64,000 bases of DNA from a virus: the IMG/VR virus record IMGVR_UViG_3300025889_000073, positions 107,729 to 171,728 of that record. One strand, given 5' to 3'. The translations under genes and the position numbers were made by a program. The notes beneath the pieces were generated by a model. The model made no database searches and was not told the origin of the DNA. It saw only the letters and a list, made by a program, of their open reading frames with translations. Positions 42,382-61,593 of the stretch are shown here, one piece after another. The first letter of the stretch is position 1. Every line of letters begins with the position of its first letter.

Positions 42382-42959
42382 GTGATATATTAACAATTGA
42401 TACTTCAAAAGATTTGTATACTAATTCTAAACCATTAGAACCTTTGCCTCTGTTTGATGATAATCATCCTTATCTATCTAAAGTTATGCCTGATTACGAT
42501 ACTACGGCACTACCTAATACGAAAATGACAAACTTGGTACAACAATTGAAGATGACTATGAAACGATATGGCGGCATAGGGTTATCTGCCAATCAATGTG
42601 GTGTTATTGAAAGAATCTTTGTAATTGGCCATGAAGATTTCTCTTTGACTTGTATTAACCCAAAAGTTGTTGAACTTTCGGAAGACTTGGCAAGTCAGAG
42701 TGAAGGTTGCCTCAGCTACCCAGGTTTATATCTTAAAATAAAAAGACCGTCTTGGATTGTAGGTGAATTTACCACAGAAGAAGGCAAGACTGAACGTATG
42801 AGAATGGAAGGTGTAACTGCTAGATGTTTCCTACATGAACTGGACCACATGGACGGTAAAAAGTTTGTTGAACTTGTTGGTCCTGCAACACTAATGACGG
42901 CTAAAAGAAAACAAGAAAAGATGATGAAGAAATTTGTTAGAAAGCAAAAGAAAAAATAA
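42378..42959 (+). CDS. def: peptide deformylase
   Basis: GIGLSANQ, EGCLS and HELDH motifs. Confidence 0.95.
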   Translation: MSDILTIDTSKDLYTNSKPLEPLPLFDDNHPYLSKVMPDYDTTALPNTKMTNLVQQLKMTMKRYGGIGLSANQCGVIERIFVIGHEDFSLTCINPKVVELSEDLASQSEGCLSYPGLYLKIKRPSWIVGEFTTEEGKTERMRMEGVTARCFLHELDHMDGKKFVELVGPATLMTAKRKQEKMMKKFVRKQKKK

Positions 42960-44233
42960 TGTCATATTCATTCGACCCTAAAGACGATGTAGAAACACAA
43001 TGGCAGAAATGGCAAGATTCCGGCCTTGAGTTTGAAAACATTGATACTGATAAACTTCGTGAGAAAACTATTGAAGAACTCACTTATGTTTCTCAAATGG
43101 ATGTCCGTGAATACACACTATTCCAAAAGTGGTGTGAAGTACAAGACAAATACCCTTCTGTTGTTGTAAATGATTTGTGGGAAGGTGAAAGACTTGTACT
43201 GAAAGATGAAAGTCAACGGCGTGATATTGAAGAAGTGAAAACTAATATTTGGATGCCACAAGACCCAGAAGAATATTTGGCATTAGAACCTGAACTGGTC
43301 TATGCCAACAAACAAGATGATTTGCCTGAATTGTGGAACTGTATTCGTACATTCTCATCCACAATGAAGAACAATGCCAATATTGGGCGTAATCTAAACT
43401 TTATTGTAAAAGATAAAATTACAAAGAAGTATCTTGGTGTTATTTGTATTTCATCTGATTTCTTAGACTTAACACCGAGAGACAAGTACATTGGTTGGGA
43501 CAGAGAACTCAAAACCAAGAAGATGATTAATCATAGTGCCATTGGTTCTACAATTGTGCCTTTGCAACCACTTGGTTTTAATTATGTTGGTGGTAAGTTA
43601 CTTGCTCTATTGTGTCTATCTGATGACGTACAAGAAAAGTGGAAAGAATTGTATGGTGATATACTTGCAGCTGTCACCACAACATCTCTTTATGGTAAGA
43701 CCAAGGCTGGTGGGTTATCACAATACGATAACTTAGATTATTGGCAGTCTATGGGTTTCACAGCAGGTTCTGTCTCATTCGAACCACTAAAAGAAACACG
43801 ATACATGATTCGGGAATGGCTGAAAACAAATCACACTAGAAAATACTTTGATTGGTATGTTGCAAAGAAACCATCAGGTCAACCACATAAGCGTGACCAT
43901 AAGAATCGTTCACTTCAATTTGTTTACTCTCAATTAAATATACCAAAAGAATTAATCAAATCAGAACACGCTCGGGGAATTTATTGGTCGCCACTTTATG
44001 CAGAAACCTGTGAGTTTCTCCGAGGCGAACATGATGGCAAAAATATGAAAAAGTGTTTTGAATCTAGTGTAAATGACCTAAGTAATATATGGAAACAGAA
44101 GCACGCCAAGCCAAGAATCAAACAATTGGTTAAAAAAGGCAGAGTTTCACATGAAACCTTGTTCTACGACAATTTGGCAATTATGAATTGGGAACAGGTG
44201 AAAGAACAATATTTGCCACAAGTCGGCCGATAA
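42959..44233 (+). CDS. DUF4338/DruA-like protein (Mom/GNAT-related), paralogue 1
   Basis: GRNLNFIV.D, L.PRDKYIGW, VPLQPLGFNYVGGKLLALL and TTTSLYG...SQYD. Confidence 0.75.
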   Translation: MSYSFDPKDDVETQWQKWQDSGLEFENIDTDKLREKTIEELTYVSQMDVREYTLFQKWCEVQDKYPSVVVNDLWEGERLVLKDESQRRDIEEVKTNIWMPQDPEEYLALEPELVYANKQDDLPELWNCIRTFSSTMKNNANIGRNLNFIVKDKITKKYLGVICISSDFLDLTPRDKYIGWDRELKTKKMINHSAIGSTIVPLQPLGFNYVGGKLLALLCLSDDVQEKWKELYGDILAAVTTTSLYGKTKAGGLSQYDNLDYWQSMGFTAGSVSFEPLKETRYMIREWLKTNHTRKYFDWYVAKKPSGQPHKRDHKNRSLQFVYSQLNIPKELIKSEHARGIYWSPLYAETCEFLRGEHDGKNMKKCFESSVNDLSNIWKQKHAKPRIKQLVKKGRVSHETLFYDNLAIMNWEQVKEQYLPQVGR

Positions 44234-44459: not shown

Positions 44460-46808
44460 ATGACATTTACGGTTCAACAAAAAACGGCACTAGCCAAACT
44501 AATGGCAACCGAGAACCTAACGGTTGAACACCAAAAAATTCAAACCGCAAAATTTGACCCTATTAAACGGGTACTTTATTTGCCAATTTGGCAAGATATG
44601 AATGGTTTTATGTATGACCTTTTGACCGGCCATGAAGTTGGCCATGCTTTGTATACTCCTGCCGAAGGCTGGCATGATGTTGCTTCTGATACATCCAAAG
44701 GTCGTTATTATAAAAACTTTTTAAATGTTGTTGAGGACGCTCGAATTGAGAAAAAAGTCCAGCGTAAATATCCTGGTCTCCGTCCTTCCTTCATTAAAGC
44801 TTATAATGAATTAATGAATCGTGATTTCTTTGGTATTAAAAATAAAGAAATCGATGGTCTGCCTTTTATTGACCGTCTAAACATTTTCACCAAATCGCAA
44901 TATAGTGCTTCTTGGATTTCTTTTAGTGCTCAGGAAGAATTAATTATCGAGCGTATCAAAACACTTGAAACTTGGGATGATGTACTAAAATTAACCCAAC
45001 AAATTTATGATTACTCTAAGGAAGAGCAATCAGAAATGTTTGAGGAAGTATATAACGATTTTGATTTCGATGATAACAATTATGATTATGATTCCGATGA
45101 ATATGATAATTATGATGATTATGGTGATTCAACTGAAACGGAAGACTTAAACGACAATTTTCAAAACAAAAATTCTGACAAACCAGAAGATAATGATGAA
45201 AATGATAATGATGATGTTTCCAGTGATGAAAATTCGGAAAACACGGAAGATGATACAACCGGAAAAATAAATCGTTTTAAAGATTCTAATCCTTATGATG
45301 GCCAATTTCAACCTCGGTGTCAAACTGATGAAACTTTCCGTCAAAAAGAATCAATTCTGCTTAATGAAAAATCAAAAGAATATGTTTATATACAAATTCC
45401 AAAACCTAAATTGGAAAAAATTATAACTCCATGGAAACGTGTTCAGGAACAAATGACTAAACACTATGAAACTGAAATATCAGAATACGGTCTTTATACT
45501 AAAGAGGATGTCAATTCTTGGGTAAAAGATTTTAAAAACAAAAATGAGCGTTATGTTGGTTTGCTTGCAAAAGAATTTGAAATGCGTAAAGCCGCCAAAG
45601 CGTTTAGTAAATTAAAAATTTCTGATACTGGTGATATCGATATTAATAAATTGGCATCATATAAATTTGATGATAATATTTTCCGTAAAGTTATGAGGGT
45701 GCCAAAAGGCAAATCTCACGGACTTGTACTATTGTTAGATAAATCTGGTTCTATGGGTGATAACATGGCCGGTTCTATCGAACAAATATTGGTGCTTTCT
45801 TTGTTTTGTCGCAAAGTGAGTATTCCTTTTGTTGTTTATGGTTTTGGTAATTCAACAGAAGCATTGGCTTGTGATTTAGGTTGTGACATGAGTGACCGAA
45901 CAAAATTGGTTGATTACTGGAATACCTTTGAAACAAATGAAGGAACTCTCTCCCTTGATGGTGTTCGTTTGCGTGAATATTTAAATTCATCTATGACAAA
46001 TGCTGAGTTTTCTATGGCTTTGCGTAATATGATTTGTTTGCAATCTGCTTTCGAACGCCGTTATTCAAATTATTATAGTGGCCGCCGAGCTTATGCAATT
46101 CCTCTATCGGAAGAAATGTCCAACACTCCACTTACTGAAGCTATTGTTGCAACAGCATCAATCATGAAAGATTTCAAACGTAAACATAATTTAGACCTTA
46201 CAAGTTTGGTTATTGTCCACGATGGTGATGCTGATTGGGTTCGTTGTTATAATACTATCATTACAAGCAAAGACGGTGAAAGTAGATTATCCCGTGAACA
46301 ATTTAATACAGAATCCCAAAATGTGATTTTGTGTGACCGTAAAAATAAATATGAAAAGAAATTGAAATGGTTGTTTCAAAAAAATAATATAATGTATGAT
46401 GTTTTAGATTGGTTCAAATCAACCACAGGTTCAAAAGTTTTTGGTTTCTTTTTGACTGGTTCTAAAACATCACACATAAAAAATTCCATTTATCATCGTT
46501 ACCATTTTGAAGATGGAAGTGATTTGCAACAAATTAGGAACCGAAGCTTTTATTCTTTTGATGACAAACTGAAACAATTGGTCAAACAAATGAAAAAAGA
46601 TAAGTTTCTTTCCAGTAAACCACAAGGATATGATAATTTTTTCCTGATTACTGGTGGCGATGACTTGAAAACTGAACAGGAAGAAATTGATGTTGGTGAA
46701 GGTAAAGTTACTTCTGCTAAATTGACAAAAGCTTTTATGAAATTCAATAAGAAAAAATCAATTAACCGTGTTTTGGTATCTAAATTCATTGAAGGAATGT
46801 CTACCTAA
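44460..46808 (+). CDS. CobT-like protein: zincin-like N-domain, acidic linker and vWA domain
   Basis: HEVGHAL and NVVEDARIE; Asp-rich linker; MIDAS LDKSGSM, NTPL and HDGD. Adjacent to a MoxR/CobS ATPase. Confidence 0.85.
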   Translation: MTFTVQQKTALAKLMATENLTVEHQKIQTAKFDPIKRVLYLPIWQDMNGFMYDLLTGHEVGHALYTPAEGWHDVASDTSKGRYYKNFLNVVEDARIEKKVQRKYPGLRPSFIKAYNELMNRDFFGIKNKEIDGLPFIDRLNIFTKSQYSASWISFSAQEELIIERIKTLETWDDVLKLTQQIYDYSKEEQSEMFEEVYNDFDFDDNNYDYDSDEYDNYDDYGDSTETEDLNDNFQNKNSDKPEDNDENDNDDVSSDENSENTEDDTTGKINRFKDSNPYDGQFQPRCQTDETFRQKESILLNEKSKEYVYIQIPKPKLEKIITPWKRVQEQMTKHYETEISEYGLYTKEDVNSWVKDFKNKNERYVGLLAKEFEMRKAAKAFSKLKISDTGDIDINKLASYKFDDNIFRKVMRVPKGKSHGLVLLLDKSGSMGDNMAGSIEQILVLSLFCRKVSIPFVVYGFGNSTEALACDLGCDMSDRTKLVDYWNTFETNEGTLSLDGVRLREYLNSSMTNAEFSMALRNMICLQSAFERRYSNYYSGRRAYAIPLSEEMSNTPLTEAIVATASIMKDFKRKHNLDLTSLVIVHDGDADWVRCYNTIITSKDGESRLSREQFNTESQNVILCDRKNKYEKKLKWLFQKNNIMYDVLDWFKSTTGSKVFGFFLTGSKTSHIKNSIYHRYHFEDGSDLQQIRNRSFYSFDDKLKQLVKQMKKDKFLSSKPQGYDNFFLITGGDDLKTEQEEIDVGEGKVTSAKLTKAFMKFNKKKSINRVLVSKFIEGMST

Positions 46809-46864: not shown

Positions 46865-46897
46865 TCTTTATAAATTGTGAAAAAGGAAATTTTTATT

Positions 46898-48073
46898 ATG
46901 GCAAAGCGTTCTGAAATCCGTGAAAAATTCATCAATGCCTTGGCTGCGACTGGCCAAGATACCGTTACGGTCGATGAAATTAAAACTATTTGTTCGCAAA
47001 TTGATATTGCTCACCCCTACTGGTTTACTAATGACACCTCAAATCGTGTAAAACGTGGTACATATAAAGTGCCTGGTGTTACTGGTGTTGCTTTACAAGC
47101 GCAAGTGATTCCTATGACAAAACCTGTTGAGAAATCTTCTAACAAAATTGTAAATGTTCAAACTGAATTGGAAGAAACCAATTTGGTTCCTACGTCATAT
47201 ACTAACTATGTTCCATTTGGCAACTTTGATGATGTTTTGTCAATCGTTAAATCGATGCGTTTCTTTCCCGTTTTTGTTTCTGGCCATTCTGGTAACGGCA
47301 AGACCATGTCAATTGAACAGGCCTGTGCCAAGGCCAAACGTAAATTTGTTTGCGTTTCTATGACACCAGAAACCGATGAGAGTGACCTTCTTGGTAATTA
47401 TGTACTAATCGATGGTAATATGGAATGGCGTGATGGTCCTGTGACTACTGCTGCTCGCCAAGGCGCTGTCCTTTGTATTGATGAAATCGATTATGGTGCT
47501 CAGAACCTGTCCTCATTGCAACGGGTGCTTGAAGGCAAACCCTTTATGCTTAAGAAAAAAGGTGAATTGATTACACCTGCACCTGGTTTCACCGTGTTTG
47601 CTACTGCCAACACCAAAGGTAAAGGTTCGGATGATGGTCGTTATATGTTCACCAATGTTCTCAACGAAGCTTTTCTTGAGCGTTTTCGTACCACGATGGA
47701 ACAGGAGTTTCCGCCCGTAACTATTGAACGTAAAATCATTAAAAAAGAATTGGCCTCTGCTGGCCGTGAAGATGATGATTTTGCTGAAAAACTTGTAACA
47801 TGGGCTGATGTTATTCGCAAAACATTCGCCGATGGCGGTTGCGATGAGGTGATTTCTACTCGGCGCTTGGTTCATATTGTTGAAACTTATGGTATCTTTG
47901 GTGATAAAATCAAAGCACTTACCTTGTGTTTGAACCGTTTTGACGATGACACCAAGGCATCATTTGTTGATTTATATACCAAAGTTGATGCTGGTGCTTC
48001 TGCCGAACAAATTCTAACGGAACAACCAGAACAAACAGAAACTGGTGTAGGTGATAATGATATCCCGTTTTAA
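46898..48073 (+). CDS. cobS: CobS/MoxR-like AAA+ ATPase
   Basis: GHSGNGKT, LCIDEID, ATANTKGKGSDDGR, NEAFLERF and ISTRRL. Confidence 0.9.
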   Translation: MAKRSEIREKFINALAATGQDTVTVDEIKTICSQIDIAHPYWFTNDTSNRVKRGTYKVPGVTGVALQAQVIPMTKPVEKSSNKIVNVQTELEETNLVPTSYTNYVPFGNFDDVLSIVKSMRFFPVFVSGHSGNGKTMSIEQACAKAKRKFVCVSMTPETDESDLLGNYVLIDGNMEWRDGPVTTAARQGAVLCIDEIDYGAQNLSSLQRVLEGKPFMLKKKGELITPAPGFTVFATANTKGKGSDDGRYMFTNVLNEAFLERFRTTMEQEFPPVTIERKIIKKELASAGREDDDFAEKLVTWADVIRKTFADGGCDEVISTRRLVHIVETYGIFGDKIKALTLCLNRFDDDTKASFVDLYTKVDAGASAEQILTEQPEQTETGVGDNDIPF

Positions 48074-48194: not shown

Positions 48195-48467
48195 ATGTCT
48201 GTTAAAGCTAAAGTTCTAGCGTATCTTTCGAAAGATTCGGAGTATAATACTCTAACCGCAAATAAAATGCGTTCCGTTTTCGGCGCAAAAAACCCCTCGG
48301 CCGTCATTGACGAGCTGCGTAAAGAGGGTCATGCTATTTACTTGAATAGCCGTACCAATGCAAGTGGCGAGAAAGTTTCTTTCTACCGTCTTGGTACTCC
48401 AACCAAGCGTATGATTGCTGCTGGTATCGCAGCCCTGCGTAATTCAGGTGTTCGTGCTTTTGCCTAA
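48195..48467 (+). CDS. small winged-HTH nucleic-acid-binding protein
   Basis: KVLAYL...LTA..M...FG..NPSAVI.ELRKEGHAIY...YRLG pattern; own promoter, SD (TAAGGA) and terminator. Confidence 0.75.
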   Translation: MSVKAKVLAYLSKDSEYNTLTANKMRSVFGAKNPSAVIDELRKEGHAIYLNSRTNASGEKVSFYRLGTPTKRMIAAGIAALRNSGVRAFA

Positions 48468-48485: not shown

Positions 48486-48523
48486 AAGAGAGAGGATATA
48501 TAATTATGTCCTCTCTCTTTTTT
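48486..48523 (+). terminator. Rho-independent terminator
   Basis: AAGAGAGAGGATATA / TATGTCCTCTCTCTT followed by TTTT. Confidence 0.85.
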
Positions 48524-48537
48524 ACTATGGATTAATT

Positions 48538-49356
48538 ATGGAAATACAAATCAAAGTCGATGAACTGAAAAAAAGTAAAGTTTTTATTGCCACCCCTATG
48601 TACGGCGGCATGGCCAATGGCCTCTATATTAAATCGTGTTTAGACCTACAAAACACTCTCAACCGTTATGGTGTTGAAAGTAAATTCTCCTTCTTGTTCA
48701 ATGAGTCACTAATCACAAGGGCTCGAAATTATCTTGTTGATGAGTTCCTTAGGACAGAAGGTTATACACATTTATTGTTTATCGATTCTGATATTCATTT
48801 TTCTCCACAAGACATTTTGGCACTACTTGCCTTAGATAAGGATGTTATTGGTGGACCTTATCCTAAAAAAGCTATCAATTGGAAAAATGTTGCTGAAGCA
48901 TTAAGGAAAAATCCTGATATGGAACCAGGCGAATTAGAACAATTGGTAGGAGAATATGTTTTCAATGTGGTCAGAGGTACTAAACAATTTTCTGTTACTG
49001 AACCGTTAGAAGTTATGGAAATTGGAACAGGTTTCATGTTAGTAAAACGTGAAGTGTTTAATAAGATGGCAGAAGCCTATCCCATGATTCACTATAAACC
49101 AGACCACCAAGGTCAGGCCAATTTTGACGGGTCACGTTACATTCATGCTTACTTTGATACTGTGATTGATTCTAAAGATTCTATTACAGGCGGCGGTTCT
49201 GACCGTTATCTGAGTGAAGATTATATGTTCTGCCAGATGTGGAGAAAAATTGGTGGTAAAGTTTGGCTATGTCCTTGGATGAAAACACAACACGTTGGTA
49301 CCTATGCTTTTACAGGTAATATGCCAGCGGTAGCTAATTTTACAGGTAAACTGTAA
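48538..49356 (+). CDS. GT-A-fold (GT2-like) glycosyltransferase-like protein
   Basis: IATPMYGG, ESLITRARN, LFIDSDI (DxD), GTGFML and LSEDYMFC..W. Confidence 0.75.
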   Translation: MEIQIKVDELKKSKVFIATPMYGGMANGLYIKSCLDLQNTLNRYGVESKFSFLFNESLITRARNYLVDEFLRTEGYTHLLFIDSDIHFSPQDILALLALDKDVIGGPYPKKAINWKNVAEALRKNPDMEPGELEQLVGEYVFNVVRGTKQFSVTEPLEVMEIGTGFMLVKREVFNKMAEAYPMIHYKPDHQGQANFDGSRYIHAYFDTVIDSKDSITGGGSDRYLSEDYMFCQMWRKIGGKVWLCPWMKTQHVGTYAFTGNMPAVANFTGKL

Positions 49357-49448
49357 ATAAACAGAGGGTAAAACCTCTGCAAAATCTTGGTAAAACAAGT
49401 GCATTTGGTAAAACAAATGTTAAACATAAGACAATAAAGGGGTAAAAC
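49339..49448 (+). repeat. array of G-GTAAA(A)-C motifs; four lie in hairpin loops and the fifth abuts the start codon
   Basis: TTTACAG-GTAAA-CTGTAAA; CAGAGG-GTAAAA-CCTCTG; CTTG-GTAAAA-CAAG; CATTTG-GTAAAA-CAAATG; then GGTAAAAC-T-ATG. Confidence 0.85.
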
Positions 49449-49449
49449 T

Positions 49450-50583
49450 ATGTCAATTTTAAAAATTAAACCGTATGGCGAATTTACGGAAGAACATCGC
49501 CAAATCGTGGAAAATAATTTGAGAAAAGATGTATTCCACGAATTCTATACGAATTCATCTTACAAATCATTGAAATTTAAAGGAACACACTTAGTTCCTG
49601 AATCTGTAATCAATCGTGATGGTGAAGGCAGTTCACAATCAACCAGATATAATGGATTAAATCCGAAATATTCTGAATTGAAATCTGGTATTTTAGAGAC
49701 CGGTTGGCAGTTGTATCAACGTCCAATTTCTCTTAAAGAAACTAAAGATAAAAAGTATATTTTTCTGGATGGCCGAACAAAAGATAAAATTTTAACGGAA
49801 GTTAAATTTAAAAATCGGATTGTTAATATATACGAAATTGATGAATCTGAGGAAGAATATTTTAATGTAGCCTTGAACAATGGTGTGGATAACCCACCTG
49901 CTGGTTTAATGTTACAGGAAGATGTTGTCGGGATTATGTTGCGCCAAATTAAAAATGGTTACTTACAAAATGACCCCGATGAAATTTTAAAAGCAGTTAA
50001 TCTAGCCTGTGGTAATGGTAAATTTTCATCAAACAAACGTGATGAAATCCGTTGGCAAGTTTATCATCGTGAACTGAATATTCAAAACACAAACTTACTT
50101 CCAAAGTCCTGGGCTAATGCTGGTGAAGTTAATTTGTGGTTACAAACACACAATTATATAAACAACAACAAAGTTTTGTATTTGCCATATTCTTCAACAT
50201 CTGCACCGAAAGCACTTGTAGCAGCTGCAAGCAAATCGCAACAAAATCCAAATAAAGAAATTAGAGTGGTTATTTACATACGAAATTTCTTAGGTGTTGA
50301 TTTGGAAAAATTCTATATCAAATCAATGTTGAAATTTAAAAATGAATGGTATAGGTTCCTTAATGAGTTTGGCCAAGCATATTTCGATAACAAGAATCCT
50401 TTAGACACAAAGGTTAAGTTATATGGTTGTGTTCCATCCAATATTGAAGGTTTATGTGAAGATATGAATAACATGATTATCTTTAACAAAAACGACCAAA
50501 AGATTGATGAGAATTATATTCTTTCAAATTCTTTAGACATTGATTCGTTTGTGGAAGAAGATGATGAGGAAGAAATGGTATGA
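49450..50583 (+). CDS. hypothetical protein with a ParB/Srx-like N-terminal domain
   Basis: QSTR...YSELKSGILETGW....PI......KYIFLDGRTK..IL resembles the ParB-N pattern Q.R...L..SI...G...PI.....GxxR. Acidic C-terminal tail. Confidence 0.55.
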   Translation: MSILKIKPYGEFTEEHRQIVENNLRKDVFHEFYTNSSYKSLKFKGTHLVPESVINRDGEGSSQSTRYNGLNPKYSELKSGILETGWQLYQRPISLKETKDKKYIFLDGRTKDKILTEVKFKNRIVNIYEIDESEEEYFNVALNNGVDNPPAGLMLQEDVVGIMLRQIKNGYLQNDPDEILKAVNLACGNGKFSSNKRDEIRWQVYHRELNIQNTNLLPKSWANAGEVNLWLQTHNYINNNKVLYLPYSSTSAPKALVAAASKSQQNPNKEIRVVIYIRNFLGVDLEKFYIKSMLKFKNEWYRFLNEFGQAYFDNKNPLDTKVKLYGCVPSNIEGLCEDMNNMIIFNKNDQKIDENYILSNSLDIDSFVEEDDEEEMV

Positions 50584-50858
50584 TTGATTACAAATATAGT
50601 GAGGATAGAATCTTAAAAGAATTACAGTCTTATGTAGATTCTACTTACAACGAACACTACTCACAAAATAAATTTCAGGCAACTGAGTTTATTATGGATA
50701 GTGGCCACGGCGAAGGGTTCTGTATTGGTAATATTATGAAATATGCTCAACGATACGGTAAAAAAGATGGATACAATAGAAAAGACTTGCTTAAAGTTTT
50801 ACACTATGGTATAATGGCTCTTCACAATCATGATTTGAAAAAGGATAATAGATTATGA
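50580..50858 (+). CDS. DUF3310-like protein
   Basis: HY.....Q..EFI......GFCIGNIMKY..RYGKK.G..KDLLK..HY. Confidence 0.8.
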   Translation: MIDYKYSEDRILKELQSYVDSTYNEHYSQNKFQATEFIMDSGHGEGFCIGNIMKYAQRYGKKDGYNRKDLLKVLHYGIMALHNHDLKKDNRL

Positions 50859-51535
50859 AATTTTCGAGTGAAACAATTGGTATTTTAAAAAACTTTGGTA
50901 ATATTAACCAAGGCATCATGTTTAAAAAAGGTAAGACACTTAAAACTGTTTCGCCACATAAAAACATTTTGACTCATGCTGAGATTCAGGAAGATATTCC
51001 TACTGACTTTGGTGTTTATGATTTGCCACATTTCCTCTCGACCATGTCGGCATTTAAAGATGTTCCAAGTCTGGAGTTTGAAGAAAAACAAATGTTTATT
51101 GTTGGACCACAAGGTGACAAATTCACCTATCGTTTTTGTGAACCAACAATGATTGTTCTTCCGCCTGAAAAAGAATTGGTCATGCCTGACCCAGAAGTTA
51201 AGTTTGAAATTTCTAATGATAACTTTGACAAATTCATGCGAGCTGCAAACATTCTATCGTCACCACAAATTGCAATCAAATCGGATGGCCAAAATGTGAA
51301 TATTGTTTCTTTGGATATGCAAAACGACTCTGCACATACCTATTCACTTAATGTTTCTGAAGGTAATGGTGATACCTATCAGATTGTATTTAAAACTGAA
51401 AACTTCAGTAAAATACTTTCTGGTACTTATGAATTTTCTTATTCGTCTAAGGGTGTTTCACACTTTAAAAATAAGAATCTTAATTTGAAATACTGGGTGA
51501 CGAGTGAAGCTGGTTCCAGTTTCACCAAAGGTTAA
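50855..51535 (+). CDS. gp45: sliding clamp gp45
   Basis: ILKNF.NIN.GI, FGVYDL..FL and FK.EN...GTY; precedes gp44. Confidence 0.92.
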   Translation: MKFSSETIGILKNFGNINQGIMFKKGKTLKTVSPHKNILTHAEIQEDIPTDFGVYDLPHFLSTMSAFKDVPSLEFEEKQMFIVGPQGDKFTYRFCEPTMIVLPPEKELVMPDPEVKFEISNDNFDKFMRAANILSSPQIAIKSDGQNVNIVSLDMQNDSAHTYSLNVSEGNGDTYQIVFKTENFSKILSGTYEFSYSSKGVSHFKNKNLNLKYWVTSEAGSSFTKG

Positions 51536-53174: not shown

Positions 53175-53576
53175 ATGGTGGACTTAAACAATTTTATTGA
53201 AGTGGGTCTAAAGGAACAAGATGATTTTTTAAAAATTCGTGAAACATTAACTAGAATAGGAGTATCTTCCAGGCGAGAAAAGGTTTTGTATCAATCTTGC
53301 CACATTTTACATAAACAAGGAAGATACTATATCGTACACTTTAAAGAATTATTTGGTTTAGATGGTAAACCTTCAAACTTATCCGAAAATGACATACAAA
53401 GACGTAATGCAATTGCAAAATTACTTGAAGATTGGGGATTACTTAAAATTCTAAACCATGAAAGAATTGGTAATAATGTTGCCCCATTACACCAAGTTAA
53501 AATTATTTCTTTTAAAGAAAAAGAGGAATGGGAATTGGTTACTAAATACAATATTGGTAAAAAGTCTAACGAATAA
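53175..53576 (+). CDS. regA: translational repressor RegA
   Basis: DDFLKIRETLTRIG and LYQSCHILHKQGRYYIVHFKELF.LDG. Confidence 0.97.
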   Translation: MVDLNNFIEVGLKEQDDFLKIRETLTRIGVSSRREKVLYQSCHILHKQGRYYIVHFKELFGLDGKPSNLSENDIQRRNAIAKLLEDWGLLKILNHERIGNNVAPLHQVKIISFKEKEEWELVTKYNIGKKSNE

Positions 53577-56389: not shown

Positions 56390-58924
56390 ATGACTAATTA
56401 TTACACCAACGTACAAGTTTACGGTAACAACATTCTTTTCCGTGGCGTAAATAACGGTCGGCGATTTGGTAAAAAAATACCATACTCGCCGACTTTGTTT
56501 TTACCATCTAAAAAACCAACAGACTTTAAAAGTTTGCATGGTGATTTTTTAGAGCCTAAAAAGTTTAAAACTATTCGTGAAACAAGAGATTTCATTAAGA
56601 AATACGAAGAAGTTGAAAACTTTAAAATATATGGTAATGCTAGTTTTGAATATGCCTTCATCTCCGAACACCAAAAAGGTATGATAGAGTGGGACATAAA
56701 TCAACTTGATATAGCAATCATCGATATTGAGGTTGGTTCTGAAAATGGTTTCCCAGATCCAATTGATGCAAATGAGCCAATTACTGCAATTTCTATCCGA
56801 AAACTTAATGGTGAGATGGTTGTTTATGGTTGTGGAGAATTTCAAAATTATCGTGATGATATAAACTATATTCGTTGTAAAGATGAATGGACACTCTGTA
56901 AAACATTTTTAGAAGATTGGAAAGATAATCATCCAGATGTTATTTCTGGATGGAACGTAAAGTTTTTCGATATACCATATTTGGTTAATCGATTTAAACG
57001 TATTCTTGGAGAAGAATATGTCAACAAACTTTCACCGTGGGATATCATATATACCCGTGAAAAAGTTATTAGAGGTAAAAAACAAATTGCTTATGATTTG
57101 TTAGGCATATCTTGTTTAGATTTTATTGAATTATATAAATGGTATGCGCCTGGTGGTAAATCGCAAGAATCATATCGTTTGGACAATATCGCTTATGTAG
57201 AACTTGGAGAAAATAAATTATCATATGAAGAATTCGATAACCTACACCAACTGTATAAACTCAACTATCAAAAATTTATTGAGTATAACATCAAAGATGT
57301 GGAACTTGTCGTTAAACTGGAAGAAAAGTTAAAATTAATTGAATTAGCTTTGACTCTTGCCTACGATACAAAGACAAACTATGAAGATGTCTTTGCTCAA
57401 ACTCGTATGTGGGATTCTCTAATCTATTCTTATCTGATTAACAAAGGGACTGTTGTACCGCCAAAAAAGATTAAAGCAAAAGATTCTGCTTTTGAAGGTG
57501 CTTACGTCAAAGAACCTCAAGTAGGATTACATCCATGGGTCGCATCATTTGATTTGAATTCTTTGTATCCACATTTGATGATGCAATACAATTTATCTCC
57601 TGAAACATTAATAGAACCAAAAGACTATACACAAAATATGCGTGATATAGTTTCTTCTGGTGTTTCGGTTGATAAACTATTAACAAAACAAATAGACACT
57701 TCCGGGCTGGTTGACGTTACAATGACACCAAACGGTCAATTTTTCAGAACTGACATACAAGGTTTTATTCCTAAAATGTTGGAAGAAATGTATGAAGACC
57801 GAAAAAAGTTTAAAAAGATGATGTTAAAATGTCAACAAGACATTCAAAATGAAGAAGACACACATAAGAAAAGGGAGTTGGAAAATCTAATTGCTAGGTA
57901 TAACAACCTTCAACTTGCAAAAAAGGTTTCGTTGAATTCTGCTTATGGTGCAATGGGTTCACAATATTTCCGTTTTTATGATTTGAGGCAAGCTCTTGCT
58001 GTTACATTGGCTGGCCAATTATCCATTAAGTGGATTGAAAATAAGTTAAATTCTTATTTAAATACTTTATTAAAAACACAGGATGATTATGTTATTGCAT
58101 CAGATACAGATTCAATTTATCTTAAACTTGAACCTCTCGTAAAATCGGTGTTTCAGAAAGAAACAGAAACTTCTAAAATTATATCCTTTATGGATAAAGT
58201 CTGTGAAGATAAAATTCAACCGTTTATCGACAAGAGTTATTCTGAGCTTGCAGAGTATGTTCATGCGTATGCACAAAAGATGCAAATGAAACGTGAAGCT
58301 TTGGCTGACAAAGGTATTTGGACTGCCAAGAAGCGTTACATTTTAAATGTATATAATAATGAAGGTGTTGTATATAAAAAACCTAAACTAAAAGTTATGG
58401 GTCTTGAAATGATTAAATCATCCACACCTTCTGCGGTGCGTGAAAAAATGCGTGAGTTGATTGAATTGATGATGACTGCAAAAGAAACCGAGATACAAGA
58501 CTTCATATCAAATTTTCGAAGTGAATTCAAAAAGTTACCTGTAGAAGAAATATCTTTTCCTAGAGGTTTGAATGGTCTCAATGATTATTCCGATTCTGCG
58601 ACTTTATATAAAAAAGGCACACCTATTCATGTTAAAGGTGCAATCATTTATAATTTCAATTTGAAAAAATTGGAGTTGACAAATAAATATCCTTCCATCC
58701 AAGAAGGTGAGAAGTTGAAGTTTACTTATCTCAAAATGCCAAATCCTTTTAAAGATTCAGTAATCTCTTACCCAACTAGATTGCCTAGAGAATTCAATTT
58801 GCAGGAATATATTGATTATGACCTACAATTTGAAAAGTCCTTTTTAGAACCTGTAAAAGTTATTTTAGATTGTATTGGTTGGAAGGTAGAAAAAACATTT
58901 TCTTTGGAAAGTTTTTTTGAATGA
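56390..58924 (+). CDS. gp43: family B DNA polymerase gp43
   Basis: DIEV exonuclease I, SFDLNSLYP, K..LNS.YG, SDTDS and KKRY; C-terminal clamp-binding SLESFF. Confidence 0.98.
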   Translation: MTNYYTNVQVYGNNILFRGVNNGRRFGKKIPYSPTLFLPSKKPTDFKSLHGDFLEPKKFKTIRETRDFIKKYEEVENFKIYGNASFEYAFISEHQKGMIEWDINQLDIAIIDIEVGSENGFPDPIDANEPITAISIRKLNGEMVVYGCGEFQNYRDDINYIRCKDEWTLCKTFLEDWKDNHPDVISGWNVKFFDIPYLVNRFKRILGEEYVNKLSPWDIIYTREKVIRGKKQIAYDLLGISCLDFIELYKWYAPGGKSQESYRLDNIAYVELGENKLSYEEFDNLHQLYKLNYQKFIEYNIKDVELVVKLEEKLKLIELALTLAYDTKTNYEDVFAQTRMWDSLIYSYLINKGTVVPPKKIKAKDSAFEGAYVKEPQVGLHPWVASFDLNSLYPHLMMQYNLSPETLIEPKDYTQNMRDIVSSGVSVDKLLTKQIDTSGLVDVTMTPNGQFFRTDIQGFIPKMLEEMYEDRKKFKKMMLKCQQDIQNEEDTHKKRELENLIARYNNLQLAKKVSLNSAYGAMGSQYFRFYDLRQALAVTLAGQLSIKWIENKLNSYLNTLLKTQDDYVIASDTDSIYLKLEPLVKSVFQKETETSKIISFMDKVCEDKIQPFIDKSYSELAEYVHAYAQKMQMKREALADKGIWTAKKRYILNVYNNEGVVYKKPKLKVMGLEMIKSSTPSAVREKMRELIELMMTAKETEIQDFISNFRSEFKKLPVEEISFPRGLNGLNDYSDSATLYKKGTPIHVKGAIIYNFNLKKLELTNKYPSIQEGEKLKFTYLKMPNPFKDSVISYPTRLPREFNLQEYIDYDLQFEKSFLEPVKVILDCIGWKVEKTFSLESFFE

Positions 58925-59727
58925 AATATTGTTTGGTCATTAAAGAGATAAACAAGTTTGACGCTGTTGAATTTGTCCAAGAATATCATTATTCGAAAGT
59001 GATGCCTAAACTAACAAAACATTATTTGGGTATATTCAATGATGACGCACTCGTTGGTGTTTTAACTCTAGGATGGGGAACTCAACCACTTCAAACAATA
59101 AAAAAATTATTTCCAAATTGTCAAACAAAAGATTACTATGAAATAGGTAAAATGTGTATGCATCCCGATATGCCAAGAAATTCAGAGTCACAAATGCTCT
59201 CTGCTGTCATAAAATGGATGAAGAACAATTTACCTACAGTTAAATATTTGTATACATGGGCTGATGGTATTGTAGGTAAACCTGGTTATGTTTATCAAGC
59301 GGCCAACTTTTATTATGGAGGATTTATTTGGACTGATGTTTACATTGGACCAGATGGTGAAAAAATACATCCGAGAACTGCTAAAGGTTTGTGTATAGAA
59401 AATGGTAAACGGTTGGGTCGAGATAAAGTTTTTTGGTTAACGTTTGACTTTATGCAAGATAAAGGAATCAAAAGAATCAAAGGCAAACAGTTTAGATACA
59501 TAATGCCTTTGACGAAAGAAATAAGAAATCGTTTGAATAAAGATTCTACGGTCAATTGGAACACAAATTATCCTAAACACTCAGACTTGTTATGGAAAGA
59601 AATGACAGGTGTTGGCCAATATTCAGAAACCACAATGATACCACAATTTGACTTGGGTGTAGTGAACTTAAATAGAAAGAATGTGTTTTCAAACGCAAGG
59701 AAGAATACTTTAGAAAATTTCTTTTAA
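58921..59727 (+). CDS. Mom-like (GNAT-fold) DNA adenine-modification protein
   Basis: FV.EYHYS, E...MC....PRNSES..LS and TWAD....PGYVYQAANF.Y.G resemble the Mu Mom family. C-terminal TLENFF. Confidence 0.75.
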   Translation: MKYCLVIKEINKFDAVEFVQEYHYSKVMPKLTKHYLGIFNDDALVGVLTLGWGTQPLQTIKKLFPNCQTKDYYEIGKMCMHPDMPRNSESQMLSAVIKWMKNNLPTVKYLYTWADGIVGKPGYVYQAANFYYGGFIWTDVYIGPDGEKIHPRTAKGLCIENGKRLGRDKVFWLTFDFMQDKGIKRIKGKQFRYIMPLTKEIRNRLNKDSTVNWNTNYPKHSDLLWKEMTGVGQYSETTMIPQFDLGVVNLNRKNVFSNARKNTLENFF

Positions 59728-59728
59728 C

Positions 59729-60550
59729 ATGACACAAGTAATACTTCCATTCTTAACAGCAATAGCACTATCAACAATTGCTGCTTTTTATTCGGTCATA
59801 GGTTTAGCACAAATATTTCCAGGTTCATTTTGGCCAATCGTTATTATGGGTGGTGTATTAGAAGTTGCTAAACTTGTGACTGTTTCTTGGTTGTATAATA
59901 ATTGGAAAGAAACAGTAATATTAATGAGGTATTACTTCATTACTGCTGTGATATTTCTTATGTTGATTACTTCAATGGGTATCTTTGGTTATTTGTCAAA
60001 GGCACACCTAGAAACAAATATAGTTGTTGGTGCCAATAGTGTTGAAATAAAGATATTAGAACAACAAGAAAAAATATCTAAAGAAAGGTTAGATTACTTG
60101 TTGTTAAAAGCAGGCAATGACCCAACTAAAATAGCTAGAGCAACGAACAACGCAATTATGGAAACTCAGGCAGAATTAAAACGCCTAGCGGAACAAAAGT
60201 TGCCGTTGTTAAAGGAAGAAAACGCTTTGCTGGCAGAAGTTGGTCCAATCAAATACATCGCCGAAGCTTTGTATGATAAAGAAGACCCAAACTTCATAGA
60301 TAAAGCTGTACGCATTGTTATTTTAGTTATCATTGTGGTATTTGACCCACTTGCTGTATTGTTACTTATTGCCGCAAACCAAACATATCGAAAGATAAAA
60401 ACAGTAGTGGAAGAACCACCTAAAAAGGCAACAAAGAATAGAAAGCTTGACAAGAAACCTAGTCCTAGTTTAGAATCATTCTTTGATAGTAATGCACATG
60501 AACTTGTACCAAAAAAAGAAATACTTAAAATTGATGGAGAAATAAAATGA
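59729..60550 (+). CDS. membrane protein with coiled coil
   Basis: Three N-terminal and one C-terminal hydrophobic helices (SMGIFGYLSKAH, EVGPIKYIAE, VFDPLAVLLLIAAN) flanking a heptad region. Confidence 0.7.
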   Translation: MTQVILPFLTAIALSTIAAFYSVIGLAQIFPGSFWPIVIMGGVLEVAKLVTVSWLYNNWKETVILMRYYFITAVIFLMLITSMGIFGYLSKAHLETNIVVGANSVEIKILEQQEKISKERLDYLLLKAGNDPTKIARATNNAIMETQAELKRLAEQKLPLLKEENALLAEVGPIKYIAEALYDKEDPNFIDKAVRIVILVIIVVFDPLAVLLLIAANQTYRKIKTVVEEPPKKATKNRKLDKKPSPSLESFFDSNAHELVPKKEILKIDGEIK

Positions 60551-61593
60551 GTTTGCTCGATAAATTGAAAAAGAATTCAACAATTAAAGATTCGGCTATT
60601 CTTACCAAATCTAAATTTTTTACCGAGAAAGATATAATTCAAACTGATGTGCCTATGGTAAACGTGGCGTTATCAGGTAGTTTAGATGGAGGTTTGACGC
60701 CAGGTTTAACAATGCTTGCTGGTCCATCTAAGCATTTTAAGACAGCGTTTGCTTTGTTGATGGCTTCTGCCTATCAAAAGAAATATCCTGAGGCTGTCGT
60801 GTTATTTTATGATTCAGAATTTGGCACACCGACCAAATACTTTGAAACATTTAATATCAATATGGATAATGTGTTGCATACTCCAATTACTGATGTTGAA
60901 CAATTGAAGTTTGATGTTATGAAACAACTACAGGAACTGGAAAAAGATGACCGTGTAATTATTGTAATTGACTCAATTGGTAACTTGGCATCTAAGAAAG
61001 AAGTTGAAGATGCGTTGAATGAAAAGTCGGTTGCTGATATGTCACGAGCAAAACAAATGAAATCTTTGTTCCGCATGGTGACACCACACCTGACCATTAA
61101 AGATATTCCAATGGTTGTTGTCAATCACACTTACAAAGAAATTGGTATGTTTCCTAAAGATATTGTTGGTGGTGGTACAGGCAGTTACTATTCTGCTGAC
61201 ACAATTTGGATTCTTGGTCGCCAACAAGAAAAAACTGGAACTGAAATCACAGGTTACAACTTTATCATCAACGTAGAGAAGTCACGTTATGTGCGTGAGA
61301 AGTCTAAGATTCCAGTTACAGTATCATTCGAAGGTGGTATTCAGAAGTATTCTGGTTTGCTTGATGTTGCAATGGAAGGTGGTTTTGTACAAAAGCCATC
61401 GAATGGTTGGTATGCTAAAGTTGACCAAACGACAGGTGAGTTAGGTCAAAAGTATCGTGAAGCAGATACTAATACCAAAGAATTTTGGAATGAACTTTTA
61501 ACAAATGGGAAGTTTTCAGAATTTGTCACTAAAAAATATTCTGTAACTTACAATTCAATCATTGAACAGGAACAGGAAAATGAAATGGTTTGA
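60547..61593 (+). CDS. uvsX: RecA-like recombinase UvsX
   Basis: AGPSKHFKT, FYDSEFG, DSIGNLAS and DMSRAK. Confidence 0.97.
   Translation: MSLLDKLKKNSTIKDSAILTKSKFFTEKDIIQTDVPMVNVALSGSLDGGLTPGLTMLAGPSKHFKTAFALLMASAYQKKYPEAVVLFYDSEFGTPTKYFETFNINMDNVLHTPITDVEQLKFDVMKQLQELEKDDRVIIVIDSIGNLASKKEVEDALNEKSVADMSRAKQMKSLFRMVTPHLTIKDIPMVVVNHTYKEIGMFPKDIVGGGTGSYYSADTIWILGRQQEKTGTEITGYNFIINVEKSRYVREKSKIPVTVSFEGGIQKYSGLLDVAMEGGFVQKPSNGWYAKVDQTTGELGQKYREADTNTKEFWNELLTNGKFSEFVTKKYSVTYNSIIEQEQENEMV

What the first reader, a model, noticed from the sequence alone, without database searches (positions are those of the whole stretch)
49339..50583. Array of hairpins with a shared GTAAAA loop leading into an orphan ParB-like gene: possible RNA-protein or iteron-protein system
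Seen: five G-GTAAA(A)-C motifs lie within 110 nt. Four are loops of perfect stems with different sequences (7, 6, 4 and 6 bp), all closed by G-C, so loop and structure are conserved while the stems vary. Loop starts are at 49346, 49368, 49390, 49408 and 49442 (spacing 22, 22, 18, 34). The fifth copy lies between the SD-like AAGGGG and the ATG. The downstream 377-aa protein has a ParB/Srx-like N-terminus (DGRTK), and the unit sits just before the clamp operon. Inference: varying stems argue for recognition as single-stranded RNA or DNA hairpins. The protein may bind its own leader (autorepression, or a repeat-RNA antitoxin/sponge arrangement reminiscent of CsrB or type III TA), or the array may be a parS/origin-like loading site. 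I know of no described system matching this layout.
Basis: partly seen in the sequence, partly recalled or inferred. Interest (0 to 1): 0.82.

Follow-up and report, generated by a model that had tools for sequence, protein, structure and literature searches.

The report
Conserved hairpin leader of phage ParB-like gene
Three small hairpins that share the loop GTAAAA but have unrelated stems form a conserved leader in front of a new ParB-fold gene family of uncultured T4-type phages; the leader most likely acts as folded RNA that controls the gene, perhaps by binding the gene's own protein, but no binding has been shown.

Summary
At 49362-49419 three perfect hairpins (6, 4 and 6 bp) carry the loop GTAAAA. 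The 171.7-kb genome has 259 GTAAAA sites, and these three are the only ones with a stem of 4 bp or more (Fisher p 1.4e-6).

Its stem is not kept in most relatives. The fifth copy, on the RBS, occurs only in the closest relatives.

Homologues of the 377-aa ORF (25-90% identity) carry 1-5 hairpins with (G/A/T)TAAAA-type loops and different stems directly upstream. This holds in three gene orders and also behind their own sigma-70-type promoters. Related phages without the gene have no such hairpins.

The protein has a ParB/Srx N-domain fold (Z 9.6) but no Pfam match, and the genome encodes no ParA. The family has 306 clusters, all from uncultured phages.

Best reading (0.4): an RNA operator array in the mRNA leader for autogenous post-transcriptional control. 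Rivals are a protein-independent or other-factor RNA element (0.3) and a DNA-level loading site (0.2). Type III TA and CsrB-like readings are not supported.

The scan also noted this same stretch in another window, and a comparable array beside a phage parB on other DNA.

The parts
49339..49357 (+). Hairpin 1, TTTACAG[GTAAA]CTGTAAA. It overlaps the last five codons and the TAA stop of the upstream gene. Doubtful member of the array.
   Evidence: The stem is absent in L001, L003, L014, L017 and L045. Where it forms, the loop differs.
49362..49379 (+). Hairpin 2, CAGAGG[GTAAAA]CCTCTG. First conserved operator-like hairpin, with an SD-like 5' arm and an anti-SD-like 3' arm.
   Evidence: Best hit of model R1 in the genome (27.4 bits). 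Orthologous hairpins in L002, L014, L016, L017 and L032 have compensated stems.
49386..49399 (+). Hairpin 3, CTTG[GTAAAA]CAAG.
   Evidence: The identical hairpin is found in L001, L002 and L033.
49402..49419 (+). Hairpin 4, CATTTG[GTAAAA]CAAATG, with one more G-U pair at 49401/49420.
   Evidence: Second-best R1 hit in the genome (24.3 bits). Also present in L002.
49436..49449 (+). Ribosome-binding region AAAGGGG with an embedded fifth GTAAAAC copy. It can form at most 2 bp.
   Evidence: Only L001 and L002 share this copy. Many other relatives instead have a weak SD-sequestering mini-hairpin, CYTT[(T)AAA(A)]AAGG.
49450..50583 (+). 377-aa ORF (P0001). It has a ParB/Srx-fold N-domain (about residues 38-150, invariant LDGRTKD at 106-112), a helical middle domain, an alpha/beta C-domain (242-327) and a disordered acidic tail.
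48538..49356 (+). Upstream gene: glycosyltransferase-like protein, 272 aa, phrog_1574. Its stop codon lies in hairpin 1. Context only.
50580..51535 (+). Downstream DUF3310 gene (50580-50858) and gp45 sliding clamp (50855-51535). Their reading frames overlap the preceding stop codons. Context only.

Best explanation
The three GTAAAA-loop hairpins, with a weak copy at the ribosome-binding site, are a cis-regulatory element of the mRNA leader of a new ParB/Srx-fold gene family in pelagimyophage-like T4-type phages.

Proposed mechanism. The leader is transcribed and the hairpins fold in the RNA. Their identical, exposed GUAAAA loops on R-Y closing pairs are recognition sites for a protein, most simply the gene's own product. 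Binding to the strong upstream hairpins then helps to occupy or stabilise the weak hairpin at the Shine-Dalgarno sequence, so the protein limits its own translation. This is the logic by which T4 gp43, gp32 and RegA control their own mRNAs.

Shown: the element is real, it is conserved in structure and in loop sequence, it is linked to this gene alone, and it lies between promoter and RBS wherever a promoter can be recognised.

Inferred: that it acts as RNA. Not shown: who binds it, and the direction of the effect.
For: 1. Exclusive linkage. GTAAAA-loop hairpins occur 15 times in 2,080 nt upstream of 13 non-redundant homologues. They occur twice in 157.9 kb elsewhere in those loci, and both of those are the Walker-A codons of gp44. 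Pooled Fisher p 2.7e-18.

2. In the five of six whole phage records whose leader has GTAAAA-type loops, the best hits of hairpin model R1 are the leader of this gene. In the sixth (G002, leader loop AATAAACC) the best hit lies elsewhere. The three best hits outside the leaders lie inside ORFs.

3. R1 also finds the hairpins in remote members that were not used to build it: L058 and L059, 25-32% identity. It finds none near gp45 in Melnitz, HTVC008M or S-H9-1, which lack the gene.

4. The array moves with the gene through three gene orders: GT-gene-DUF3310-gp45, gp47-gp46-gene-pdf, and DUF3310-gene-gp45.

5. Where a sigma-70-type promoter is recognisable, the hairpins start a few nt after the -10 box and end 25-40 nt before the ATG, which places them in the 5' UTR. 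Four loci score 10-12 of 12 in the scripted scan (L015, L037, L023, L024). L056 and L058 read TTGACA-17-TATAAT by eye. L009, L034 and L038 reach 9 of 12, also read by eye.

6. Many leaders end in an SD-sequestering mini-hairpin with the same A-rich type of loop. L056 has a 7-bp one. This only makes sense in RNA.

7. Stems are compensated between orthologues and are unrelated between copies, while the loop is exact: 18 of about 45 leader hairpins are exactly GTAAAA.

8. The encoded protein has a nucleic-acid-binding fold.
Against:
- ParB/Srx-fold proteins are known to bind dsDNA or nucleotides, not RNA hairpins.
- The loop does not co-vary with protein clade, so there is no co-evolution signal for a specific protein-RNA pair.
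- The strong hairpins do not overlap the RBS.
- The window itself has no recognisable promoter between the upstream gene and the array, so there the element is intercistronic.
- Folding energy of the sense strand is not significantly better than that of the antisense strand (p 0.15), so RNA against ssDNA is not settled by sequence.
- The fixed orientation relative to the gene can be explained by common descent of a cassette.
Confidence: 0.4

Rival explanations
1. The array is an RNA leader element that works without the ParB-like protein. The hairpins would protect the 5' end or the intercistronic region from RNases, set local folding so that the RBS stays open or closed, or be bound by another factor such as host proteins or the phage RegA repressor encoded at 53175-53576.
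For: The element lies at the extreme 5' end of the transcript behind promoters. Some leaders mix GTAAAA loops with GAAA or GAAAA loops, which are generic stable purine loops. In the GT-gene order the first hairpin has SD-like and anti-SD-like arms. RegA is present.
Against: A purely structural role does not explain an exact hexamer loop kept from 90% down to about 25% protein identity. A general host or phage factor should have more targets, yet no other copy exists in six phage records. RegA is known to bind unstructured AU-rich RNA at start codons, not hairpin loops (my own knowledge).
Confidence: 0.3
2. The array is a DNA-level site for the ParB-like protein: a loading, operator or centromere-like site analogous to parS, OB or NBS, read as hairpins on transiently single-stranded DNA or as the GTAAAA core in duplex DNA.
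For: The protein has a ParB N-domain and a helical domain that superposes on ParB-N plus HTH-bearing relatives. ParB-family genes usually sit next to clustered cognate sites. The array lies in the replication and recombination gene block, and most family members carry a clamp-binding-like LxxFF tail. The strand-asymmetry test does not exclude DNA.
Against: The arms are not conserved, so no half-site exists for an HTH dimer. Stems of 4-8 bp are too short to extrude as cruciforms (established knowledge). The array always lies between promoter and RBS, and SD-sequestering copies exist. There is no ParA. Cumulative GC skew shows no turning point at the locus.
Confidence: 0.2
3. The array is a processive antitermination signal of the nut or rrn-leader type: boxB-like hairpins with G...A purine loops just after a promoter, which make RNA polymerase read through the long replication operon.
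For: The position is promoter-proximal. Some loops (GAAAA, GTAAA) resemble the lambda boxB pentaloops. The leaders of L027 and L056 carry GTCTCTTTAA, which is close to rrn boxA GCTCTTTAA. An earlier scan note on another phage parB-adjacent hairpin array named nut sites as closest.
Against: There is no boxA-like sequence in the window or in most leaders. There are several tandem copies instead of one. The array follows the ParB-like gene, not the clamp operon: it is absent before gp45 in phages without the gene. No terminator lies between the ORF and gp45.
Confidence: 0.07

Closest known systems
Autogenous translational operators of T4-type replication genes: the gene 43 operator hairpin bound by the DNA polymerase, the gene 32 leader, and RegA targets (my own knowledge; Andrake 1988, Tuerk and Gold 1990, McPheeters 1988)
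   Same: A phage replication-block gene carries structured RNA with an A-rich loop in its own leader, upstream of the SD. The binder proposed here is likewise a nucleic-acid-binding protein acting on its own mRNA.
   Different: Here there are 2-5 tandem hairpins with one shared hexaloop instead of a single hairpin or pseudoknot. The protein has a ParB/Srx fold. Binding is untested.
ParB-parS, KorB-OB and Noc-NBS (ParB-CTPase clamps and their sites; PMC12704722)
   Same: A ParB N-domain fold, with the gene placed beside a cluster of repeated cognate-looking sites.
   Different: Known sites are conserved dsDNA palindromes. Here the arms vary and only the loop is kept. There is no ParA, no PF02195 match, and the motif is DGRTK instead of GERR.
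Orphan phage ParB homologues that activate 5mYOX thymine dioxygenases (PMC13229309)
   Same: An orphan ParB-like protein of a lytic phage without ParA, lying in a region rich in DNA-modification-type genes (a glycosyltransferase-like gene and a Mom-like gene in the window).
   Different: No TET/JBP gene is present in this genome. No hairpin array is described for those ParBs.
Lambda N-boxB / nut sites and rrn leader antiterminators
   Same: Short promoter-proximal hairpins with purine-rich G...A loops that are recognised as RNA.
   Different: The copies are multiple, most leaders have no boxA, no N-like protein is found, and the element occurs at a single locus per genome.
CsrB/RsmZ sponges and type III toxin-antitoxin (ToxIN) repeat RNAs
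   Same: Several copies of one short recognition motif lie close to one another.
   Different: There are no GGA loops and no identical tandem repeat units. The protein is not a ToxN-type RNase or CsrA. Rfam and PADLOC give no hit.

Membership tests
ParB/Srx superfamily (ParB-CTPase fold, Pfam PF02195 ParB_N) | Sequence match to PF02195 above the gathering score | tested here: not met
   Pfam gives no hit for P0001 or for 10 remote members. PF02195 finds nothing in the genome in six frames. NCBIfam gives nothing.
ParB/Srx superfamily (ParB-CTPase fold, Pfam PF02195 ParB_N) | ParB/Srx N-terminal domain fold | tested here: met
   The AF2 model has pLDDT 79.8. Structural matches: pNOB8 ParB-N Z 9.6 over 156 residues, PadC Z 9.0, KorB Z 7.5, sulfiredoxin Z 6.9. 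Foldseek gives probability 1.0 to ParB, KorB and Noc. In the Atlas feature search, 28 of 30 hits are clusters that bear ParB_N.
ParB/Srx superfamily (ParB-CTPase fold, Pfam PF02195 ParB_N) | Arginine-rich NTP-binding motif (GERRxR) at the strand-to-helix junction, together with box I and box III residues | tested here: inconclusive
   The invariant LDGRTKD sits at the end of strand 103-107 and the start of helix 109-117. Q63, R66 and N143 are conserved. No residue-level superposition or nucleotide-binding test was possible.
ParABS partition systems | A ParA ATPase partner and a conserved palindromic parS site | tested here: not met
   No AAA_31 (ParA-type) match in the genome. The hairpin arms are unrelated between copies.
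Type III toxin-antitoxin (ToxIN-like) | Tandem direct repeats of one RNA unit followed by a ToxN/AbiQ-type endoRNase gene | tested here: not met
   Tandem Repeats Finder finds no tandem repeat. PADLOC gives no hit. The fold is ParB-like.
CsrB/RsmZ-type protein sponges | Multiple hairpins with GGA in the loop, and a match to an Rfam family | tested here: not met
   The loops are GTAAAA. No Rfam hit falls in the array even at E up to 10.
Autogenous translational operators (T4 gp43/gp32 type) | A structured element within the gene's own mRNA leader, between promoter and RBS | tested here: met
   Promoter, then hairpins, then SD in L015, L037, L023, L024, L056 and L058, and with weaker promoters in L009, L034 and L038.
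Autogenous translational operators (T4 gp43/gp32 type) | Specific binding of the gene product to the operator, with repression of translation | not testable with these tools
   No RNA-protein prediction or expression data were available.
nut / rrn-type antitermination leaders | A boxA sequence (GCTCTTTA-like) next to the boxB hairpin | tested here: not met
   Absent from the window and from most leaders. Only L027 and L056 carry GTCTCTTTAA.
PeSL cassettes of T4-type phages (promoter-early stem-loops) | The same stem-loop-plus-promoter sequence repeated at many intergenic sites of one genome | tested here: not met
   The hairpins occur at a single locus per genome, and they follow the promoter rather than precede it.

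The most novel reading that the evidence does not exclude
A ParB-CTPase-fold protein family recognises hairpin loops (GUAAAA on variable stems) in its own mRNA leader or in single-stranded DNA. This would be the first structure-specific, non-duplex nucleic-acid ligand for the ParB fold. The protein would possibly be nucleotide-gated and tethered to the phage sliding clamp through a C-terminal LxxFF-acidic tail, coupling its level or activity to replication.
Probability: 0.3. Interest if true: 0.8.

Novelty: new variant of a known kind. Interest (0 to 1): 0.62.

Why it matters
- The ParB-CTPase fold is under active study as a versatile switch (PMC12704722, PMC13229309). All of its known nucleic-acid ligands are duplex DNA. 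A ParB-fold protein paired with a hairpin-loop array would widen that repertoire.
- The family has at least 306 clusters at 50% identity, is invisible to Pfam and PHROGs, and is absent from 50,697 cultured-phage records. It is therefore a sizeable blind spot in the annotation of abundant aquatic T4-type phages.
- The element is short, sharply defined and easy to test by gel shift or with reporter fusions.
- If it is a specific protein-RNA pair, the hairpin and its binder could serve as an orthogonal RNA-tagging tool in the way MS2 and PP7 do.

Tried and rejected
- Rfam scan of 48500-51000 at E up to 10: nothing in the array.
- tblastn of P0001 and of remote member P0118 against 50,697 phage records: no match.
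- Profile A1 against PDB sequences: no match.
- Profile A1 against Melnitz, HTVC008M and S-H9-1: only an 11.6-bit hit in HTVC008M, taken as noise.
- PF02195 against S-H9-1: nothing. The cyanophage 'ParB/Sulfiredoxin' proteins that Foldseek ranks first in BFVD could therefore not be located, and their leaders were not examined.
- A broad alignment, A2, was too divergent for a locus scan.
- TET/JBP partner as in PMC13229309: absent from the genome.
- Origin reading: cumulative GC skew rises monotonically with no turn at the locus.
- Strand-asymmetry test (folding energy and G-U counts, sense against antisense) on 19 leaders: not significant, p 0.15. A first attempt to count internal G-T against A-C mismatches gave too few cases.
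- Anti-leader idea, that the loops pair with a complementary motif elsewhere: GGTAAAAC occurs only twice on the minus strand of the window, which is no enrichment.
- Late-promoter reading of TGTAAATA at 49351-49358: not conserved in relatives.
- Pair counts on alignment A3 (93.9% paired, 0 of 500 shuffles reach it) are partly circular, because the hairpins were chosen for having 4 or more pairs. I do not lean on them.
Full report
**Setting.** The window is bases 107729-171728 of a 171,728-bp virus record with 35% G+C. Its nearest cultured relatives are the pelagimyophage-type T4-like phages Melnitz and HTVC008M, and the match to them is only a short stretch at about 75% identity over the DUF3310/gp45 junction. 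The gene order around the finding is:

- peptidase-like gene (44460-46808)
- CobS (46877-48073)
- small ORF (48195-48467) followed by a 15-bp terminator (48486-48519)
- glycosyltransferase-like gene, phrog_1574 (48538-49356)
- the hairpin array
- the 377-aa ORF (49450-50583)
- DUF3310, gp45, gp44, a 97-aa ORF, gp62, RegA, and further on gp43 and UvsX

- Hairpins: TTTACAG[GTAAA]CTGTAAA, CAGAGG[GTAAAA]CCTCTG, CTTG[GTAAAA]CAAG and CATTTG[GTAAAA]CAAATG. A fifth GGTAAAAC lies between the SD and the ATG.
- RNA folding of 49320-49470 returns exactly these four hairpins, with z = -4.4.
- The genome has 259 GTAAAA sites on both strands. The only three with a stem of 4 bp or more are the three in the array. 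Fisher p is 1.4e-6.
- Of 416 hexaloop hairpins with stems of 5 bp or more in the genome, only two have the loop GTAAAA, and both are in the array.
- Hairpin 1 is different in kind. It consists of the codons F-T-G-K-L-stop of the upstream gene. That peptide end is conserved in relatives (YTGKL or YTGRL), but the stem forms in only some of them and the loop changes.
- The fifth copy is shared only by the two closest relatives.

**Is the array tied to the gene?**

- The ORF has 42 homologue clusters at 90% clustering. They show 35-92% identity, are all 353-398 aa long, and have no Pfam domain. A profile search finds 306 representative clusters at E of 0.001 or better.
- I fetched 22 loci from viral contigs and 21 from metagenome contigs, and single contigs of remote members.
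- Directly upstream of nearly every homologue lie 1-5 short hairpins whose loops are GTAAAA or close variants: ATAAAA, TTAAAA, GTAAAAA, GTAATA, CTAAACA, ATAACA. The stems have no sequence in common.
- In 13 non-redundant loci there are 15 GTAAAA-loop hairpins in the 2,080 nt upstream. There are two in the remaining 157.9 kb, and both of those are the codons V-G-K-T-T of the gp44 Walker A motif. Pooled against the own-genome background, p is 2.7e-18.
- Orthologous hairpins differ by double, compensating changes. Comparing the window with L002, the closing pair changes G-C to A-T and the fifth pair A-T to G-C.
- A covariance model of one hairpin (R1) finds the leader of this gene as the top hit in the own genome and in four of five other large phage records. 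In the fifth (G002), whose leader loop is AATAAACC, the top hit lies elsewhere. The three best hits elsewhere lie inside ORFs and look like chance.
- R1 also finds the leader hairpins of L058 and L059, remote members at about 25-32% identity that were not used to build it. It finds nothing near gp45 in Melnitz, HTVC008M or the cyanophage S-H9-1, which lack the gene.
- The array therefore belongs to the gene and not to the clamp operon.

**Mobility of the unit.** The gene, with its array, sits in three different gene orders: after the glycosyltransferase-like gene, as in the window; directly after gp47-gp46 and before a peptide deformylase; and between DUF3310 and gp45. It lies in the plastic region between the recombination genes and the clamp genes, where Melnitz and HTVC008M carry other accessory genes.

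**RNA or DNA?**

- Where the gene starts a transcription unit, a sigma-70-type promoter lies immediately upstream of the first hairpin. L037, L024, L056 and L058 read TTGACA-17-TATAAT. L023 reads TTGACT-17-TATAAT and L015 reads TTGCCT-17-TATAAT. L009, L034 and L038 have weaker versions.
- In these loci the hairpins begin a few nucleotides after the expected start site and end 25-40 nt before the ATG, so they are 5'-UTR elements.
- Many leaders end in a weak mini-hairpin, CYTT[(T)AAA(A)]AAGG, that contains the SD. L056 has a 7-bp version, TTCTCTT[TGAA]AGGAGAA. An element of this kind only makes sense in RNA.
- In the window no promoter is recognisable, so there the array is intercistronic.
- A strand-asymmetry test on 19 leaders was not significant (p 0.15). 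Sequence alone therefore does not exclude single-stranded DNA.
- Recognition of duplex DNA at the arms is excluded by their lack of conservation. Stems of 4-8 bp are too short for cruciform extrusion (established knowledge).

**The protein.**

- AlphaFold2 with the family alignment gives mean pLDDT 79.8 and pTM 0.67.
- Residues 38-210 superpose on the pNOB8 ParB N-domain (Z 9.6, 156 residues, rmsd 3.0). Residues 42-148 superpose on PadC (Z 9.0), KorB (Z 7.5) and sulfiredoxin (Z 6.9). Foldseek agrees. So do the Atlas searches by features and by shape.
- Pfam, PHROGs, NCBIfam and PADLOC are silent.
- The family signature LDGRTKD lies at the strand-to-helix junction where ParB has GERR. Q63, R66 and N143 are also conserved. 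A retained nucleotide pocket is plausible but was not tested.
- The genome has no ParA-type ATPase, no canonical ParB_N and no TET/JBP dioxygenase. The protein is therefore neither part of a partition system nor an obvious member of the 5mYOX-activating ParBs described in PMC13229309.
- About 35 of the 47 closer family members carry [S/N/G]L[S/N/T]xFF[D/N/E] followed by an acidic tail. The gp43 of this genome ends in SLESFFE. In the T4 family such C-terminal peptides bind the gp45 clamp (established knowledge). The window's own protein has a variant, SLDIDSFVEE.

**Mechanism.**

- The exclusive, long-lived linkage between the hairpins and this gene, and the absence of any other copy in six genomes, argue that the factor reading the loops is the gene's own product rather than a general host or phage factor.
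- The position of the hairpins, together with the SD-embedded weak copy, suggests autogenous translational control. This is the scheme used by T4 gp43, gp32 and RegA (my own knowledge).
- I give this reading 0.4.
- The same RNA element acting alone or with another factor gets 0.3.
- A DNA-level loading or operator site for the ParB-like protein gets 0.2.
- A nut or rrn-type antitermination signal gets 0.07.
- Type III TA and CsrB-like readings fail their defining features.

**Earlier scan notes.** The same stretch was noted in an overlapping window (e1-5667996). A note on the clamp-binding-like tails of gp43, Mom and a membrane protein (e1-5668004) gave me the tail lead, and I checked those three sequences. 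An unrelated prophage family was reported to have four hairpins with an invariant loop next to a phage parB (e1-3489171). I did not check it, but it suggests the pairing may not be unique.

**Verdict.** This is a real, conserved and previously undescribed cis-element coupled to a large unannotated ParB-fold family of uncultured T4-type phages. Its mechanism is open and can be tested directly.

Noticed in passing
window 56390-58924, 58921-59727, 59729-60550; family tails in P0004-P0047: gp43 ends in SLESFFE, the Mom-like protein ends in TLENFF, and a membrane ORF contains SLESFFD. Most ParB-like family members carry the same LxxFF motif followed by an acidic tail, which points to a shared sliding-clamp docking peptide.
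   Followed up: partly
window 60547-61593 and 49450-50583: UvsX ends in ...EQENEMV and the ParB-like ORF ends in ...DEEEMV. These are similar acidic tails with a hydrophobic tip and could dock on a common partner.
   Followed up: no
window 49362-49379; L002, L014, L016, L017, L032, L045, L046 leaders: In the gene order GT then ParB-like, the first hairpin always has a purine-rich SD-like 5' arm (GGAGA, GGAGG, AGAGG) and an anti-SD-like 3' arm (TCTCC, CCTCC). This could be a decoy-SD or anti-SD switch.
   Followed up: no
window 48486-48519: A 15-bp G+C-rich terminator with a T run ends 19 nt before the start of the glycosyltransferase-like gene, and no promoter lies between them. That gene and the ParB-like ORF therefore need read-through or an unrecognised promoter.
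   Followed up: no
L027:480-634 and L056:60-206: The leaders of two remote family members carry GTCTCTTTAA, which is close to the rrn boxA GCTCTTTAA. L056 also sequesters its SD in a 7-bp hairpin.
   Followed up: no
L003:4955, L014:5592 (gp44): A GTAAAA-loop hairpin, (T)GTAG[GTAAAA]CTAC(A), lies inside gp44. It is simply the Walker A codons V-G-K-T-T, which shows that such hairpins can arise from coding constraints.
   Followed up: yes
window 42959-44233, 48195-48467, 48538-49356: The 424-aa phrog_19197 gene, the 90-aa ORF and the glycosyltransferase-like gene are found together in the related loci examined, while the ParB-like cassette changes position around them.
   Followed up: partly
BFVD hits to model mfb8e76c7e254: The closest viral structural relatives are proteins of about 345 aa from T4-like cyanophages (P-SSM3, MED4-213, S-T4, S-H9-1, P-SSM7), named ParB/Sulfiredoxin domain proteins. 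I could not locate them by sequence in S-H9-1.
   Followed up: partly
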